A stretch of DNA of 64,000 nt, taken from contig CAKTUZ010000010.1 of the NCBI GenBank assembly GCA_934621605.1, positions 14,580 to 78,579 of the forward strand, given 5' to 3'. Origin of the DNA: an uncultured bacterium (lineage in GTDB: Bacteria; Vulcanimicrobiota; Xenobia; Xenobiales; Xenobiaceae). Made by a program: the position numbers. Shown piece by piece: positions 1-6,000 of the stretch (its first letter is position 1; each line of letters opens with the position of its first letter).

Positions 1-3000
1 CGTATCGGCGCCGACCTCACGCTGACAAATAACTGAGTTTTTATCTTTATGCAAAAATTCGATAGGGTCTTCGCAAGTAACAATATGACAACGGCGCGAT
101 TCGTTAATATGATCGATCATAGCAGCTAAGGTAGTAGACTTGCCCGAACCGGTAGGGCCAGTAACTAGAACCAACCCACGCGGACGCATAGCTAACTCAG
201 CTACAGTCTGCGGCATTTTTAACTCTTCTAGCGTTAGAGGACGCGAAGGAATTACACGCATAGCTGCTCCCCAGGTGCCGCGCTGCAGGTAAATATTAAC
301 ACGAAAACGAGACAAACCTGGAATACTATAAGCTAAGTCCAACTCTTTATCAGCAATGAATTTCGCCTTTTGTTCATCAGTCAAAATACTCTCGCAAAGC
401 CTACGCACAGTAGCAGCGTCAAGTATTTCGTAAGTAGCTGGAGTAAGTTCACCGTCGACACGGATCATAGGGGCGCTGCCAACCTTTATATGCAAGTCGG
501 AAGCTCCACGCTCCACCATAGTAGCCAGCAAATCGTCTAATGCAAGTTCATGTGAGTCAAGAAGACTATCCATCTATTCACCTTTACAGCAAGACTGAAA
601 GCAGCGAACCAACTCCAGTCTCAAATTACGAACAAAAAACCGCCTCCCCCTTCGAGAATTTCAACAGTTTGCCTGCCAGATAAGAGCAAATGGAGAGATT
701 GTTGAGGCAGGGCCGACTAAAAAGGACACGAAAGAAGCGAGCGTGTCTGAATTAACCGATTTACAAGAATTCTTAAAAAGTGATTTGCCGGTTTTAGAAT
801 TTAATAACCTCGGCCTACCAACTTCTGATTCCCAGAATCAACAGGAGCACTGGCTCCGCTTAGCTGCTAGTAACTTACGCGGCTTTAATAAACAGCCCTG
901 TGTAGTCAGACGCAGTATCAAGTACAATGATGTGCAAACTGAAGTTAGACGTTGGAGTGAAGAAAATTTTCTACCCCTAAAAAACGAAAACGAAACTTCA
1001 GTCACTCTTTTTATAGGAGAGGACGCCTGTCTTTACCAAAGCATTTTGGACGGACAACGCATTTTGCGCCACGATCCTGGCGATGAAATAGTTGAAGATA
1101 TCTATATATACAATAGAATCGACAATCCTCTGGGCATTCAGTTAGAACGGATTCGCTGCCTAGTAATCTCTGTGCTGTACGAAATCGGTTATATCAATTG
1201 GCCTTGTCTGAGCACTGCGGAACGTCTAGCTTTAGTATCCCATAAAAGCGGCAGCGCCGAAGCCAAACAAGCTTTAGATTCACTTTACGAAGGCGATCAA
1301 ACTTCTACTTTGGAAATGTTTTTAGGCCATGCCACCAATGAAAAAATTAAACAAGAAATTTGGGAAGCTGGTAAGCGAGGCAAATTTCGCCTTAATACCA
1401 AAGCTATGCTGTGGTTATTAAAACGCCCCGACTGGAATACAAACAGCTGTGTCACCTTTATGGCTCTGGGCATTGCGGCGGAACATCCCCAAGAGACTTC
1501 TCAACTTATGCTCCACCCCAATAATCTGGTGCGTCTTCACTTAGCAGATCTTATAGACAATATGGAAGTTTTATTGGAATGGCTAGGTTGGGAAAACAAC
1601 CCGGCTGTCCGCCGCCGCATTTTGCTAAGCTTGCAAAGAACAACTTCTCCAGCAGCTTTGATATCCAAAATAAAGGCTACCGAAGCTTCGGGAACTGTCG
1701 CCTCCCAGTCTACAAAAACAAAATTTAACTCTGAGATTATCGGTTGGGTACTAGCCAATTGGCGTCAAGGTTTTGTAGATGAAAGCATAAAATCCGCTTT
1801 ACAAGAAGCTACATGTCTGCCTATAGGCAAAAATAATCAAAAAAAAATTAAGGATCTAATAAAACAGTACAGCTTTATTAAATCCTAATATTCACGAAAC
1901 AGGCAAGCCTCTTTTACTCCAAAGCTCGATCGACTATCTTGGCCCCTGCCACTTGCTCGACAAGTTGAGGGGAATGAGAGGCCAAGACCAAACAGCCATA
2001 AGCATCCTCCAGCTTAGGCATTTGGCGACACACTTCCGAAGCTTTCTCCAACAAAACTTCGCGATCTCCATCATAATCAATAAGCTCTTTGGCGCCGTTA
2101 ATAACTTCTTCCTGAAGGCGACGCACCTTATCTTCCAGAGGAACGAAGATTTTTTCCAGTTCTTGTAAAGATGCAGCAAACTGTTCACCGCTTTCGTTAT
2201 TCTGTAACGCCGCCGAACCCAATGCACATATTATGTCTTTACTGTTATAAAGATTATCCCCAGTGGCAAGTGCCTGAACGCGAGCTGTAATATCATTAAA
2301 GGCGGCTATTCCCCCCATAATCAGCTGCATCCCCACCCTTAGTTCCAATGCTTCTTCATTGTTTACAAAGGCTTCAAATTGCATAAGTCCCAAGTGTATT
2401 ACATAATAGGTGTCATCTATACTGGAGGCTAAAGAAGCAAGATAACTTTTCTCTGCTTCATTTTCCGGAATAGCCTTAAGCTCGTCTTTAATTTTAGCAT
2501 AAGCCTCTTCTATAGTTTTAAATATATCATATACGCTCTGCAAAAAAGCTTCCGGTGCAATTTCATGCCTACTGACTTGAGCGACCAGCTTTAGTAAACC
2601 GCTGTATCTTGACGTATCAGTTGCACTGGCAGCGGGAGAGGTTAATTCTTTTTCCGGCTGTTTACCAGAGGCCAAAGAATCCATGAAAACTCCTCCAATA
2701 GTGTCAGTTAATTGCCAACCAAGGCCACACTAGCAATACCTTGGCGGCTACTCTCAATCATACTTTTCCAATTTGTTCTTTCTCTTCTGCTCCAACAAGG
2801 ACAGCCCCTTGTCATGAAGCCCCTCAATAAAAAATTGGCACAAACAACCTACATTGCTCCCCTTGCCAGTCAAGAAAAAAAGAGAGCCGCCCAATACCAC
2901 GTTTAGCCGACTCTCTCTTATCAGCTCTCTACATAGAGAACGCCCTTTTCAAATTAGTTAAAAAGATCATAACCAAATTTGGCAATTTCAGCTACAGCAG

Positions 3001-6000
3001 CTACGCCCAAAGCCACGGCAGCCACGGGAGCGCCCACGCCAGTCATAGCCGCAACACCAGCTACAGTAGTAGCTACACCAGACACAGCACTCAATGAGCC
3101 CTTAACGATTTTGTCGGTAGCCTCTTTATCGTTACTCTTGTCACCATCATTTTTGGCTTGTACGCCTTCAACGATATCTTTGACGCCTCCGGCGGTACCG
3201 AGAACCCCACCGGCTACCCCCAGAACTGGTACAACCTTAGAAGCGGTACCGGCTACGCCGCCAAGCTTACTGGCCGCCTTAGTTACACCGGAAACAGCCG
3301 CGCCGCTCTCGGCCGCCGCTCCCATTTTAGTGACAGCGTTGGTACCAACTTTGCCCAAAGTCTCAAGAGCAGTACCAGCAAAATCACTGGCACTCTTAGC
3401 ATAGTTGAAACCATTAACTTCTTCGCCCTTAGCTAAAGCGATACTATCACTAGCGAAACCAACTACATCTGAAATTCCTCCCAGAGCGCTCATAGTCTTG
3501 CCACCAAAATTGCTATACTTATCTAAGCCTTTGATAACTTTAGTCTCTCTGGCAGCGTCGCTGGAAGCATCGACAACTCCACCGGCGAACTTCTGAGTCT
3601 TACCTACAACTTTATCGCGGGCTCCATCGGCAGTGTTATACACTTCACCGATAACTTCACCGGCACTCTTGTCGTCCTTATCTTTCTCTTTGCCTTCAAC
3701 CTTTTTGTCTCCGGTAGCTTTATCGGAAGATTTACCCTCGGCAGCTTTTTTGTCGGAAGCTTGATTACCATTATTGAGAGCATTGTTTAAGCTGACAAAG
3801 TCTCTGGTATTGTCAACCTTCACCGCAGCCTGATTAAACAAATCGTCCGTTAGGCTCTTGGAAACCTTCTCGTCTCCATCAAAAGCCTTCTTGGAAAGAG
3901 AATCACTCTTAAGCAAAGTACTTATCTGATCGGAACCGGCTCCGCTACGAACGGCACTCTCTACTTTAGACTTAAGACTAATATCGTTTTTAGCTTTGGC
4001 TGCTTCATTTTTTTGATTTTGCTGAGCTTGTTTCTTTTCCTGAGCCTTTTTCTGCTCTTCGGCCTTTCTCTTAGCCTCGGCACGCTTGCGCTCTTCAGCC
4101 TTCCTTCTCTCTTCGGCTCTTCTGGCTTCTTCAGCACGACGCTGCTCTTCAGCGCGGCGCTGAGCCTCTATCTGTTGGGCATATGCAGACGAACTTCCTA
4201 CTCCACTTACTGCCATAACAATCACCCGTCCCATCTGGTCATAATTGACTTATAGATACCGCAATCAAATTCATTTGTCTAGCTTATTTGAAGCCAGTTT
4301 CATTGAGTTAACATTTATTTTACATCAATTAGATAGCATTCTTCGGTTCAGGTTCATTAGAGTGAACGACCATAATGGCTTTAACCCAGTATTCATTGGC
4401 TTTGGAGGCAGCTTCTCGCGTATCCAACAGAATTTCATAATTTTTACCGTCAAACTTTTTAGCTTGATCTAAAGCTTCATGGAAAGATCTGCAACCTTCA
4501 TGCAAACATTCGTTAAGTATATCATCGACATTACACACGGCGTCAAAGTAAGTATCAGCGTCTAATTCTCCCTTCACATAGGCGTTTATGGAAGGAGCCA
4601 AAAGATCTCTATTATCGATAATATCGGGATCTTGTCGGTTTTTAGCATAAGACAAAAGCCAGTGTAGTCCTTGGTAAGCTTGTTTTATAAGCATAAGGCC
4701 CACTCTTATGGGTTGCAAATTGCCGGAGGAATACATTTCCAATTGCATAACTGCCAACTTGAAAATGTAATAAGAGTCATCACGGCGCATTTTTAAAGCT
4801 TTTAGATTCTTGGGCTCATCAACTTTGTCTATAAAGGCGTCAACTTGAGCATACAGTTCTTCAAAATTTGCTACAACCGGAGTCAACATAAACTTAAATT
4901 TATCGATATCAGCAGAGGTAGAGACAGCTTTATTCAAACAAATATTTAAAGCTCGCAAGCAATCTTGAGCATCAAGGCAAGTAAAATCTCCCCCCCTTAG
5001 GAGAGCTGCCGCCGGAAGTTCAAGGTTACTTTGGCTGCTAGCAAACCCTTGCACAGCTAAAGGACGTTCCGAGCCACATTTCTGACAGACAGATTCATCA
5101 ATATCATTGCTAAAACTGCAGACAAAACAAATCCAATCAGTGCTCATAGATTAATCTCCTTAAACTACAGACCCATCACCAATTAACACGAGTCATCCTA
5201 ATTGTTAAAAAAATTAGTTTCACTAAAAATAATCCCTGCTAAAGACAAAGTTTAGTCATCTTTAGAAACCAGAGGGACGCAAAGTTTAAATAAAGAAGGC
5301 CAAACAATAGAAGAAACGACTGCCAAAAGAACAACCGCCGCATTAAAACTTTCAGTAATTGCTCCCATTTTTAGTCCTAAATTGCCAAAGACTACTAGCA
5401 AAGTAAGGGGAGCCGCCAAAATTAAAGAAGCGGTTATAGCTTCTTTTAAGCGACAACTCCAAGTCGGACGAGAAGTATTCCAAAGGGCTAAACAAGCGAT
5501 AAAACGTACCACAAGCATAGAAATAAAAAGCAGGAAAAGCAACTTCCAGTCAGACTTGAGAGCCATATCCAACTTAAATTCCAAACCTACTCTGATAAAA
5601 AATACCGGTACAAAAAATCCGTTAGCTAAACTTAAAAATTTCATTTCCAGCGGCCCTTTGGCTCTAAATACATAACTAAACAAAGCTCCGGCCATAAAAG
5701 CGCCTAAGATAGCATCAACGCCTAAATGAATAGCTGCAGCAACCATAATAAACATAAGGGCCATACCAGCACGTACACCTATTTCCGAAGGATCGTGAGC
5801 AGTGACAACCCGGCTAAAATACTCGGGACGCCACCAAACAGCCGAACGTAAAACAGTCAAAAGCACGTAAGCTAAAGCAAAAATCAGCAACATCTTCACA
5901 ACGCTTACCACAAAAACAGTATTAAAGCCGCCGGCCGTATTCCAAGCGGCCATAAAAGTAGCCGCCACAATACATACAAATTCTCCAATAGTGCCAACTA

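What the first reader, a model, noticed from the sequence alone, without database searches (positions are those of the whole stretch)
1914..5147. Three-gene minus-strand locus: zinc-finger protein, ER/K-helix glycine-zipper protein, and a paralogue of the first
Two paralogous proteins flank a third. The paralogues share the block DD[ST]YY[VI]..L..MQ.E...[LI]RVG..LI. The upstream one (4329..5147) adds a RanBP2-type zinc finger. The central gene (2954..4234) has an unusual make-up: an ER/K single-alpha-helix segment, a Lys/Asp/Ser-rich disordered spacer, and a roughly 200-aa Gly/Ala/Val/Thr/Ser-rich region with GxxxG periodicity ending in a hydrophobic glycine-zipper tail. I recognise none of the three as a characterised family. 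Paralogues flanking an unrelated gene is an arrangement seen in modular accessory systems. A putative terminator at 2874-2919 sits between the central gene and the downstream paralogue, so expression may be uneven.
Basis: seen in the sequence. Interest (0 to 1): 0.7.

Follow-up and report, generated by a model that had tools for sequence, protein, structure and literature searches.

The report
Uncharacterised three-gene membrane-protein module in Vulcanimicrobiota
The three genes are real and belong together: a membrane-hairpin protein with a long charged helical stalk, flanked by two related soluble helical proteins, found almost only in the poorly studied phylum Vulcanimicrobiota and matching no described protein family, so its function is still unknown.

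Summary
All three minus-strand ORFs exist as described. A (4329-5147) and C (1914-2684) are true paralogues over about 186 aligned columns, not just the short block. A carries an N-terminal RanBP2-class zinc ribbon. B (2954-4234) has an ER/K charged helix, a variable spacer and a conserved Gly/Ala/Val C-terminal domain that ends in a roughly 40-residue hydrophobic hairpin. The claimed GxxxG periodicity is not above chance.

None of the three matches Pfam, NCBIfam, PADLOC, PHROGs or a specific solved fold. The window comes from a gut Xenobia (Vulcanimicrobiota) related to Ca. Bruticola. The triad is syntenic across diverged Xenobia genomes and occurs as two triads in one rumen MAG.

A minimal pair, one helical partner next to a roughly 200-aa B core, recurs in nine lineages, including high-GC environmental contigs with no assigned taxon. 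Three B-bearing and one partner-bearing lineage lack the neighbour. No phage or plasmid relatives were found, and divergence is similar to neighbouring core genes.

Best guess (about 0.35): B is a hairpin-anchored membrane protein acting as a tether or scaffold, and A and C are its soluble binding partners or chaperones. A pore-forming toxin with a chaperone or antitoxin is the main rival. A conserved terminator follows B.

The parts
4329..5147 (-). Gene A: 272-aa soluble protein with an N-terminal RanBP2-class zinc ribbon, a variable linker and an all-helical partner domain. It belongs to the zinc-ribbon-bearing subfamily.
   Evidence: ORF. AGGAGA ribosome-binding site upstream. Orthologues at 54-81% identity. 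Homologous to C. Falls in the A-type clade.
5076..5135 (-). Zinc ribbon of A, residues 5-24: W-x-C-x2-C-x3-N-x6-C-x2-C.
   Evidence: Exact fit to the RanBP2 consensus, shared by 16 of 33 family representatives. PF00641 scores 17.2 bits, below the cut-off of 27. The family profile hits ArnA, Nup153, Mdm4 and eL40 fingers.
2954..4234 (-). Gene B: 426-aa protein (probably 420 aa from Met7 at 4216) with no signal peptide. Order of parts: Ser/Gly-rich N-terminus, ER/K helix, variable spacer, amphipathic Gly/Ala-rich helices, hydrophobic hairpin.
   Evidence: ORF. Orthologue alignment. Composition and hydropathy. No family match.
3980..4174 (-). ER/K charged helix of B, residues 21-85. It would be about 10 nm long if it is a single alpha-helix.
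   Evidence: 57% charged, 17 opposite-charge i/i+4 pairs. 92-95% identical to close orthologues. The L019 homologue gives a sub-threshold TolA domain-II-like hit.
3665..3979 (-). Lys/Ser/Asp-rich variable spacer of B, residues 86-190.
   Evidence: Least conserved part, 23-70% identity. Length polymorphism through KKAD units between L008 and L009. Replaced by collagen-like GXY repeats in L007 and by 11-residue repeats in L023.
2957..3664 (-). Conserved B core, residues 191-426: amphipathic A/G/V/K helices, the ASKxxPVLG helix with G342xxxG346xxxG350 (331-351), an acidic loop, and the hairpin 381-421 with an invariant TGVGAP turn.
   Evidence: Alignments A5 and A8. Hydropathy. The tail is 98% identical in close orthologues. 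The core is found as stand-alone ~200-aa proteins in distant lineages.
2972..3094 (-). Bilobed hydrophobic hairpin of B, residues 381-421: two helices of about 18 residues joined by TGVGAP.
   Evidence: Kyte-Doolittle 2.0-2.25 over 36-41 residues. The Pro of the turn is invariant in all 11 B-core sequences.
2872..2919 (-). Intrinsic terminator downstream of B: a 16-17 bp stem followed by a T-run.
   Evidence: Fold of the intergenic region. Conserved in 8 loci with compensatory changes at several pairs.
1914..2684 (-). Gene C: 256-aa all-helical paralogue of A without the zinc ribbon. It belongs to the Xenobia-specific C-type subfamily.
1851..1886 (-). Terminator-like hairpin plus T-run after C, in the 3' end of the convergent gene.
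   Evidence: Pattern scan only. Not tested for conservation.

Best explanation
This is a module specific to the phylum Vulcanimicrobiota (Eremiobacterota). It is built from two previously undescribed protein families.

**Component B.** The conserved ~190-aa core of B consists of amphipathic Gly/Ala/Lys-rich helices followed by a roughly 40-residue Gly/Ala/Val hairpin with an invariant proline turn. I infer that the hairpin inserts into the cytoplasmic membrane from the cytoplasmic side, because there is no signal peptide. In gut Xenobia the core has gained an N-terminal ER/K helix and a spacer of variable length. B would then be a membrane-anchored rod or tether projecting 10 nm or more from the membrane.

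**Components A and C.** These are paralogous soluble helical-bundle proteins. I infer that they bind B, most likely its amphipathic helices or hairpin. They would either keep B soluble and control its insertion or oligomerisation, or couple the anchored B to other partners. The RanBP2-class zinc ribbon of A would add a further protein- or RNA-binding surface.

**Expression.** A and B are probably co-transcribed and stop at a conserved terminator. C has its own conserved leader.

**Shown:** the homology between A and C, the restricted distribution, the gene linkage, the domain make-up and the terminator.

**Inferred:** membrane insertion, physical binding between partner and B, and the tether or scaffold role.
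For: **Linkage**
- A partner-family gene lies next to a B-family gene in nine separate lineages: the Bruticola-like group, L005/L007, L019, L023, L021/L030/L033, L022, L025, L034 and L035.
- The surrounding genes differ between these lineages, and the pair is co-oriented in some and convergent in others.
- Searches started from B and from the partner converge on the same pairs.
- Copy numbers track each other: L019 has two B genes with two A-type and two C-type genes. L023 has two B genes between one A and one C.

**Membrane anchor**
- B has hydrophobic segments at 381-421 and 331-351. Its N-terminus at the conserved Met is not hydrophobic.
- The turn proline is invariant and the tail is the most conserved part.
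- Only sub-threshold hits were found, all to membrane-inserting or hairpin regions: RTX N-terminal domain E=0.008, T6SS effector BTH_I2691 family E=0.023, MamI and MamC.

**Rod or spacer**
- The ER/K segment is conserved while the spacer length varies. The spacer is replaced by collagen-like GXY repeats or 11-residue repeats in other lineages.

**Partner as a binding module**
- The model is all-helical with no conserved catalytic-type residues across the family.

**Vertical core gene rather than mobile element**
- The chromosomal position is the same across genomes in which A, B and C are only 30-38% identical.
- Divergence is similar to PBP and FtsW.
- No viral or plasmid relatives were found and no PADLOC hit.
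Against: - There is no direct evidence for membrane insertion, topology or binding.
- The AlphaFold2 model of the B core is unusable (pLDDT 37). The C model is only moderate (pLDDT 67.6), and its structural matches are generic helical bundles. Foldseek found no hit with E<0.5.
- The B core stands without an adjacent partner in L020, L029 and L031, and a partner stands without B in L036.
- The hairpin helices are short (about 18 residues) and Ala/Gly-rich. Such segments also occur buried inside soluble pore-forming toxins.
- A collagen-like spacer (L007) is more typical of surface proteins than of cytoplasmic ones.
- No neighbouring gene of known function is consistently linked, so the cellular process served is unknown.
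Confidence: 0.35

Rival explanations
1. B is a pore-forming or membrane-depolarising toxin that acts through a glycine-zipper hairpin. It could be a bacteriocin, an abortive-infection effector or a toxin-antitoxin-like killer. A and C would be cytosolic antitoxins or chaperones that sequester the hydrophobic domain.
For: - It is a compact, self-contained two-gene module found in unrelated neighbourhoods.
- It has a GxxxGxxxG motif and an Ala/Gly/Val hairpin near the C-terminus, as in colicin-type and other pore formers.
- There are sub-threshold hits to the RTX hydrophobic domain, a T6SS effector family and a T3SS translocon protein.
- In L025 it sits next to a restriction-modification pair.
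Against: - The putative toxic domain is the most conserved part across the phylum. Polymorphic toxins show the opposite pattern.
- It is vertically inherited at a fixed chromosomal position, with divergence like the core genes.
- No PADLOC hit and no phage or plasmid relatives.
- The partner is soluble. As far as I recall, immunity proteins of pore-forming colicins are membrane proteins (from memory, not checked here).
- Several pairs are convergent rather than co-transcribed.
- No secretion signal or delivery domain is present.
Confidence: 0.2
2. B is a coat or protective protein that binds lipid or membrane surfaces, comparable to synuclein, perilipin, apolipoprotein, LEA or phasin. Its amphipathic repeats would lie on a membrane or inclusion surface. 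A and C would regulate its loading.
For: - The composition is Gly/Ala/Val/Lys/Thr-rich and amphipathic, with helical hydropathy periodicity.
- True 11-residue repeats occur in L023 B1 (33-nt repeats, autocorrelation peak at lag 11). GDKAVDGAKFV repeats are visible in the L035 B sequence.
- The L020 B protein gives a sub-threshold hit to the WalE1 family (E=1.4e-5, 24 bits against a cut-off of 90). WalE1 is said to be synuclein-like, but that is from memory.
- The hairpin with a central proline resembles hairpin-anchored lipid-droplet proteins (from established knowledge).
Against: - Every hit is far below its family threshold, and the resemblance is largely compositional.
- 11-residue periodicity is absent from the window's own B.
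- No PHA or lipid-storage genes are linked.
- This reading gives no reason for a rigid ER/K helix or for zinc-ribbon partners.
Confidence: 0.15
3. B is an exported effector that inserts into the membrane of another cell, either host or bacterium. A and C would be its dedicated export chaperones, in the manner of T3SS translocator-chaperone pairs, Inc proteins or TMD-bearing T6SS effectors.
For: - B has a moderately hydrophobic bilobed hairpin and no Sec signal.
- Adjacent small helical proteins are present.
- Gut Xenobia are host-associated, as shown by their sample sources.
- There are weak hits to T4SS and T6SS effector families.
- A collagen-like or repeat stalk occurs in some homologues.
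Against: - No T3SS, T4SS, T6SS or T7SS genes lie in any of the loci. The only nearby ATPases are of the PilB/PilT type.
- The module is also present in high-GC environmental contigs that are not from gut samples.
- The partner is 190-330 aa, with no detectable similarity to any described family.
Confidence: 0.1
4. The three genes are functionally unrelated lineage-specific orphans. Their adjacency would reflect only inherited gene order.
For: - Within Xenobia the whole neighbourhood is syntenic (FHA, FtsW, PBP, SerC, TrkA, Na/H exchanger ... PilT). Synteny of the triad alone therefore says little.
- Some B cores and some partners occur alone.
Against: - The partner-B adjacency recurs in at least six different genomic contexts outside the Xenobia synteny block, in both orientations.
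- The two families together have very few members, only 33 partner clusters among 1.84 billion representatives. Repeated chance adjacency is therefore very unlikely.
Confidence: 0.05

Closest known systems
RanBP2/NZF-type zinc finger (Pfam PF00641); prokaryotic precedent ArnA of Sulfolobus
   Same: A residues 5-24 fit W-x-C-x2-C-x3-N-x6-C-x2-C exactly. The family profile hits ArnA (E=5.7e-5) and Nup153 (E=4.9e-4). ArnA's N-terminal domain is described as a RanBP2-type finger that mediates protein or RNA contacts (PMC6509490).
   Different: Single sequences score below the Pfam cut-off, 17-22 bits against 27. The NZF ubiquitin-binding T-F motif and the ZRANB2 RNA-binding residues are absent (read from the sequence, motifs recalled from memory). 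The finger is fused to a helical domain that matched no Pfam or NCBIfam family.
FAT, vinculin-tail, talin-rod and alpha-catenin four/five-helix bundles
   Different: Sequence identity is 5-12%. Foldseek gives no significant hit (best E 0.55). De novo designed bundles score equally well, so the resemblance is generic up-down helical packing and not evidence of homology.
Hydrophobic-hairpin membrane-inserting proteins with dedicated soluble partners (T3SS translocator plus class II chaperone; TMD-bearing T6SS effector plus Eag chaperone; LiaI-LiaH / PspA-type anchor plus soluble helical protein)
   Same: A gene for a protein with a Gly/Ala-rich hydrophobic hairpin lies next to a gene for a soluble helical protein. 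There are weak sub-threshold hits to T6SS effector and T3SS translocon models.
   Different: No homology to TPR chaperones, Eag/DUF1795 or PspA/ESCRT-III was detected. No secretion-system genes are linked. The module is vertically inherited and restricted to one phylum as far as taxonomy is known.
Pore-forming colicin, RTX hydrophobic and glycine-zipper toxins
   Same: A roughly 200-aa helical domain has an Ala/Gly/Val hairpin followed by a short terminal helix. A GxxxGxxxG motif is present. The L022 B core hits the RTX N-terminal domain at E=0.008.
   Different: All hits are below threshold. There are no receptor or translocation domains and no membrane immunity protein. The C-terminal domain is conserved rather than polymorphic.
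ER/K single alpha-helix domains and TolA domain II
   Same: B residues 21-85 are E/R/K/A/Q-rich and 57% charged. The L019 homologue hits the TolA model at E=6.5e-4.
   Different: The anchor is C-terminal, whereas TolA is anchored at its N-terminus (from memory). The hit scores 19 bits against a cut-off of 59 and is compositional. Single-helix behaviour has not been tested.
Alpha-synuclein, WalE1, perilipin and apolipoprotein 11-residue amphipathic repeats
   Same: The composition is Gly/Ala/Val/Lys/Thr-rich. True 11-residue repeats occur in L023 B1 and are visible in L035 B. The L020 B hits the WalE1 family at E=1.4e-5.
   Different: The hit scores 24 bits against a cut-off of 90. The window's own B shows no 11-residue periodicity. 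No Pfam Synuclein hit was reported for the window's B or for four B-short proteins at permissive E-value limits.

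Membership tests
RanBP2-type zinc finger (PF00641) | Consensus W-x-C-x(2,4)-C-x3-N-x6-C-x2-C with four zinc-binding cysteines | tested here: met
   A has W5, C7, C10, N14, C21 and C24. 16 of 33 family representatives fit the strict pattern.
RanBP2-type zinc finger (PF00641) | Score at or above Pfam's gathering cut-off (27 bits) | tested here: not met
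   A scores 17.2 bits and the best relative (P0028) 22.1 bits. The family profile nevertheless hits solved RanBP2-class fingers at E 5e-5 to 5e-4.
NZF ubiquitin-binding subclass | T-F dipeptide after the second Cys plus a hydrophobic residue between the third and fourth Cys (motif recalled from memory) | tested here: not met
   A has S-F-S after C10 and Q-K between C21 and C24. Orthologues have GSR or GSN after the second Cys.
ER/K single alpha-helix | A long stretch dominated by E and R/K with i/i+4 opposite charges and no hydrophobic seam | tested here: met
   Residues 21-85 are 57% charged with 17 i/i+4 opposite-charge pairs. The other residues are mainly Ala and Gln. Monomeric helix behaviour cannot be tested with these tools.
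Glycine zipper | (G/A/S)xxxGxxxG within a membrane helix | tested here: met
   G342-G346-G350 lies in the hydrophobic segment 331-351. Small-xxx-small runs start at 388 and 402.
   5 motifs observed against 5.9 +/- 2.0 in shuffles. Gly autocorrelation at lag 4 is -0.03.
Pore-forming colicin / RTX hydrophobic domain | Significant match to the family profile | tested here: not met
   No colicin hit. RTX N-terminal domain (PF02382) scores E=0.008, 16 bits against a cut-off of 26.8, for one B-short only. The PDB profile search found nothing.
Known anti-phage defence systems (PADLOC) | Match to any PADLOC model | tested here: not met
   No hit for A or C. B gives only low-complexity hits with E>0.3.
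T3SS translocator / class II chaperone pair | TPR chaperone, translocator family profile and a linked T3SS apparatus | tested here: not met
   No TPR or translocator family hit: the T3SS translocon model scores E=0.9 for one sequence. No T3SS genes are in any locus.
Bacterial collagen-like proteins (Scl/Lcl) | Gly-X-Y triplet repeats | tested here: not met
   The window's B has none. Only the L007 homologue has a GXY spacer (36-nt repeat, 6.8 copies; SclB model E=4e-14, still below the cut-off).
Sec-exported protein | N-terminal signal peptide | tested here: inconclusive
   The extended ORF start MGRVIVMAVSGVGSSSAYA resembles a signal peptide. However, orthologues start at the conserved Met (MAVSG, MSVSG, MQVNG) and have no hydrophobic core. 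No signal-peptide predictor was available.

The most novel reading that the evidence does not exclude
The module is a new kind of bacterial membrane-tethering or organising apparatus. Oligomeric rods would be anchored by a glycine-zipper hairpin. The rod would be an ER/K helix, a collagen-like triple helix or an 11-residue-repeat helix, depending on lineage. Soluble helical-bundle adaptors, one carrying a RanBP2-class zinc finger, would read out or load these rods. That would make it a prokaryotic analogue of eukaryotic tether/adaptor systems, invented within Vulcanimicrobiota.
Probability: 0.12. Interest if true: 0.8.

Novelty: categorically new. Interest (0 to 1): 0.45.

Why it matters
Vulcanimicrobiota (Eremiobacterota) is a widespread phylum that, as far as I found, has one cultured representative. 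Its gut class Xenobia occurs in humans (Hadza samples), other primates and ruminants. Almost nothing is known of its cell biology.

This work defines two protein families that match no library or solved structure searched here. It shows that they are genetically linked across the phylum and gives them a testable anatomy: a membrane hairpin, a rod and helical-bundle partners. The result is a concrete entry point into lineage-specific envelope or membrane biology. It also adds a bacterial RanBP2-class zinc finger alongside the archaeal ArnA precedent.

The label "categorically new" means only that no relationship to any described family or system could be detected. It does not mean that a new mechanism has been demonstrated.

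Tried and rejected
**Family and structure searches that gave nothing specific**
- Pfam, NCBIfam, PADLOC and PHROGs scans of A, B, C and of distant homologues gave only sub-threshold or low-complexity hits.
- PDB sequence and profile searches with five profiles found only zinc-finger hits and designed helical bundles.

**Runs that failed or were blocked**
- AlphaFold2 of the B core, allowed only a two-sequence alignment, gave pLDDT 37. I did not use it for a fold search.
- The afdb50 fold library was unavailable.
- The word-indexed protein search for B was swamped by ER/K low complexity: only 1 hit among 8000 scored candidates. I replaced it with pattern scans on the B tail.
- The broad alignments A7 and A8 were too divergent for the locus finder.

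**Origins and literature checked**
- Phage or plasmid origin is rejected.
- Rfam found no RNA family in the window.
- A literature search for Xenobia/Eremiobacterota and for bacterial RanBP2 fingers listed no paper on these genes.

**Ideas considered and dropped**
- An ATP-synthase c-subunit-like hairpin: the helix-2 Glu is not conserved and is replaced by Q or T in the short forms.
- An enzyme: no conserved catalytic-type residues across the family.

Full report
**1. The observation**

The region holds three minus-strand ORFs exactly where stated: A at 4329..5147 (272 aa), B at 2954..4234 (426 aa) and C at 1914..2684 (256 aa). A and C have good ribosome-binding sites, AGGAGA and GGAGGAG.

B most likely starts at Met7 (4216). 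That codon has a GGGTGA motif 5 nt upstream, and orthologues begin MAVSG or MSVSG. The extra MGRVIV is not conserved.

BLASTP gives E=4e-6 over 69 aa. A profile-profile comparison of the two orthologue sets gives 96.5% probability and E=1e-9 over 186 columns, almost the whole helical domain.

A's N-terminus fits the RanBP2 consensus W-x-C-x2-C-x3-N-x6-C-x2-C exactly. Single sequences stay below Pfam's cut-off (17.2 against 27 bits). A profile of the whole family, however, hits solved RanBP2/NZF-class fingers: ArnA at E=5.7e-5, Nup153 at E=4.9e-4, and also Mdm4, eL40 and HOIL-1L.

B is organised as follows:
- a Ser/Gly-rich N-terminus;
- an ER/K segment at residues 21-85, 57% charged;
- a Lys/Ser/Asp-rich spacer at 86-190;
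- an Ala/Gly/Val-rich region at 191-330;
- hydrophobic segments at 331-351 (containing G342xxxG346xxxG350) and 381-421.

The 381-421 segment forms two helices of about 18 residues joined by TGVGAP.

One claim fails. GxxxG motifs in residues 191-426 number 5, against 5.9 +/- 2.0 expected from composition, and glycine shows no lag-4 periodicity.

The terminator between B and C is real. A 16-17 bp stem plus T-run at about 2872-2919 is conserved in eight orthologous loci, with several pairs changed on both sides.

**2. Where the window comes from, and synteny**

Homologues of all three proteins come only from Candidatus Bruticola MAGs and gut metagenomes. Ca. Bruticola belongs to Vulcanimicrobiota, class Xenobia.

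The neighbourhood is conserved in Bruticola-like genomes from human (Hadza) and other gut samples. The gene order is T2SSE ATPase, FHA, FtsW/RodA, PBP, SerC, TrkA, Na/H exchanger, then A-B-C, then a convergent 381-aa gene, then two PilT-like ATPases and SerRS.

Against a Bruticola MAG (L001), A, B and C are 54-66% identical. In the same comparison PBP is 59%, FtsW 66%, TrkA 73% and SerC 92%. The triad therefore diverges like a moderately fast core gene.

Two deeper Xenobia lineages keep the same chromosomal slot with variations:
- L019, a goat rumen MAG, has A, B-short, C, A, C, B-long. That is two complete triads, one with the order of B and C swapped.
- L023 has A, B1 (747 aa), B2 (381 aa), C.
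- A third type, L005/L007, has only B and C in a quite different neighbourhood, next to a xanthine-dehydrogenase-type gene and a flavodoxin.

**3. The two families beyond Xenobia**

An exhaustive profile search of 1.84 billion representative proteins with the joint A+C profile found only 33 clusters.
- Most are 260-300 aa.
- Most carry the N-terminal zinc ribbon: 21 of 33 have CxxC...CxxC.
- The few that carry a source name are called hypothetical. One of these is assigned to Vulcanimicrobiota.

A neighbour-joining tree of the helical domain separates three groups:
- an A-type clade with the zinc ribbon;
- a C-type clade without it, consisting of the window's C, its orthologues and four further representatives (P0019-P0021, P0026);
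- a large, mostly zinc-ribbon-bearing clade of representatives from unnamed sources.

This pattern suggests that the zinc ribbon is ancestral and that C is a paralogue that lost it.

Starting instead from B, a pattern scan for the invariant tail (TGVGAPVAA) was run over one genome per GTDB species. It returned ten loci. Three are labelled Ca. Bruticola or Ca. Xenobia, one Vulcanimicrobiota and one "Ca. Riflebacteria". The rest are unnamed bacteria or MAGs, one with EREM in its contig name. A scan of JGI metagenomes returned six more.

In the distant lineages B is a stand-alone protein of about 200-250 aa. This defines the B core:
- an N-terminal AANxAKYxYQxxRAAxGL motif;
- an ASKAAPVLG helix;
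- a Gly-Lys/Asp loop;
- the hairpin ATGVGAPVAAVALGVAA, whose proline is invariant.

**4. Linkage**

Local HMM searches of all fetched loci show a partner-family ORF next to a B-family ORF in nine separate lineages:
- the Bruticola-like group;
- L005/L007;
- L019;
- L023;
- L021/L030/L033, where a short partner without a zinc ribbon lies directly upstream;
- L022, convergent;
- L025, a zinc-ribbon partner, convergent;
- L034, same strand, 61 nt apart;
- L035, convergent.

The surrounding genes differ from lineage to lineage: porin-like genes, regulators, a restriction-modification pair, TerD genes, a peptidase. The pair is therefore the conserved unit.

There are exceptions. The B core has no adjacent partner in L020, L029 and L031, and a partner stands without B in L036.

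Both families are tiny, so repeated adjacency in unrelated contexts cannot reasonably be chance.

**5. What the parts look like**

Across the wide family only a Gly in the LRxG motif is invariant. The other recurring features are structural-looking motifs (LRxGxxLAxxAE, AxxFDG, ILxxHxP). I see no sign of an active site.

*B core.* The model was unusable because only two sequences were allowed in the alignment (pLDDT 37).

B's tail (331-426) and its ER/K segment are the best conserved parts. The spacer and the middle region vary.

The spacer behaves as a length element:
- It differs by KKAD units between two contigs (L008 and L009) that encode identical C proteins.
- It is replaced by Gly-X-Y collagen-like repeats in L007 (36-nt unit, 6.8 copies).
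- It is replaced by 11-residue repeats in L023 B1 (33-nt unit). GDKAVDGAKFV repeats are also visible in the L035 B sequence.

Every family-library hit to B is sub-threshold:
- RTX hydrophobic domain, E=0.008;
- T6SS effector BTH_I2691 family, E=0.023;
- MamI and MamC;
- T3SS translocon, E=0.9;
- WalE1 family, E=1.4e-5, 24 against 90 bits;
- TolA, for the ER/K part.

These hits fall on Gly/Ala-rich, hydrophobic or low-complexity regions. They say little beyond "hydrophobic, Gly/Ala-rich, membrane-active type of sequence".

**6. Interpretation**

I take the following as shown:
- There are two undescribed families.
- A and C are paralogues.
- The partner and the B core are genetically linked.
- The taxonomic range is narrow.
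- Inheritance within Xenobia is vertical.
- No phage, plasmid or defence-system relationship exists.
- A conserved terminator follows B.

The mechanism is inferred. B has no signal peptide at its conserved start, and it has a C-terminal bilobed hydrophobic hairpin with an invariant proline turn. The simplest reading is that the hairpin inserts from the cytoplasmic side, leaving the bulk of the protein in the cytoplasm.

A rigid ER/K helix, a spacer whose length rather than sequence is free to vary, and its replacement by other rod-forming repeats all point to a spacer or tether role. The soluble helical-bundle partners are the natural candidates to bind B's amphipathic helices or to shield its hairpin. 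The zinc ribbon of A would add a second interaction surface. RanBP2-type fingers are known to bind proteins or RNA (PMC6509490).

I put this at about 0.35.

**7. Rivals**

*Pore-forming toxin with a cytosolic antitoxin or chaperone (0.2).* This fits the compact two-gene module and the glycine zipper. It is hard to reconcile with three observations: the "toxic" end is the most conserved part, the chromosomal position is fixed, and several pairs are convergent.

*Synuclein-, perilipin- or LEA-like surface-binding coat (0.15).* This fits the composition and the 11-residue repeats of some homologues. It does not fit the window's own B.

*Exported effector with dedicated chaperones (0.1).* No linked secretion system is present, and the module also occurs in high-GC environmental contigs.

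*Mere synteny of unrelated orphans (0.05).* This is contradicted by the recurrence of the pair in unrelated contexts.

**8. Novelty and score**

Nothing in Pfam (2025 copy), NCBIfam (2026), PADLOC, PHROGs, the PDB or the literature searched describes either family. I therefore rate the module as unplaced with respect to every known kind of system.

The function remains unknown. Lineage-specific orphan modules are common in candidate phyla, and no long-standing question becomes testable through this one. I therefore score interest as moderate (0.45).

Noticed in passing
window 743-1888 (+): A 381-aa ORF convergent with C, with the two stop codons 25 nt apart. It is syntenic next to the module in every Xenobia locus that keeps this slot (L001, L002, L008-L012, L019, L023) at 41-85% identity. 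It has no family match (weak HEAT_2, E=0.11). It is absent from the L005-type B-C locus. It could be a fourth component or simply a syntenic neighbour.
   Followed up: partly
window ~2714-2748 (-), in the 5' leader of C: A conserved hairpin (GCCAAGG...CCTTGG) lies just upstream of the C ribosome-binding site. A second conserved hairpin (CAAGGGGC.GTCCTTG) lies about 60 nt further upstream. Several pairs are kept through changes on both sides in the 8-locus alignment. This could be a regulatory leader or a processing site. It has no Rfam match.
   Followed up: partly
L008:8502-9731 vs L009:8463-9737: Two contigs that encode identical C proteins (P0011) differ in B by a 15-aa expansion of KKAD(D/G) units in the spacer. 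This suggests within-species length polymorphism, probably by slippage.
   Followed up: no
L007:5360-5646 (homologue of B): In this lineage the B spacer is a collagen-like Gly-X-Y array (36-nt unit, 6.8 copies, 92% matches). It hits the SclB, SclA and Lcl adhesin models below their cut-offs. A collagen-like rod implies trimerisation and is unusual for a protein without a signal peptide.
   Followed up: partly
L023:10442-10614 and L035:7927-8736 (homologues of B): L023 B1 has tandem 11-residue repeats (KDVGGKVVDGV-type) and L035 B shows GDKAVDGAKFV-type repeats in its sequence. This is the repeat length typical of lipid-surface-binding amphipathic helices.
   Followed up: partly
window 12316-13017, 20806-22524, 22619-25258: Three FHA-domain proteins lie within 13 kb. 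One of them precedes FtsW/RodA and PBP. The G+C peak at 22-24 kb (0.53 against about 0.44) coincides with the two large FHA genes.
   Followed up: no
window 13083-15479 (-): Two adjacent T2SSE-family (PilB/PilT-type) ATPase genes. Orthologous loci also carry two PilT-like genes on the other side of the module, so the module sits between type IV pilus-type ATPase genes.
   Followed up: no
window 1851-1886 (-): A terminator-like hairpin plus T-run lies between the convergent C gene and the 381-aa gene. It may work in both directions.
   Followed up: no
L014 (CAAGRW010000122.1): A GTDB representative MAG carries the full triad at 82% B identity to the window. Its record title labels it 'Candidatus Riflebacteria bacterium'. 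The label is probably outdated or wrong for a Xenobia genome.
   Followed up: no
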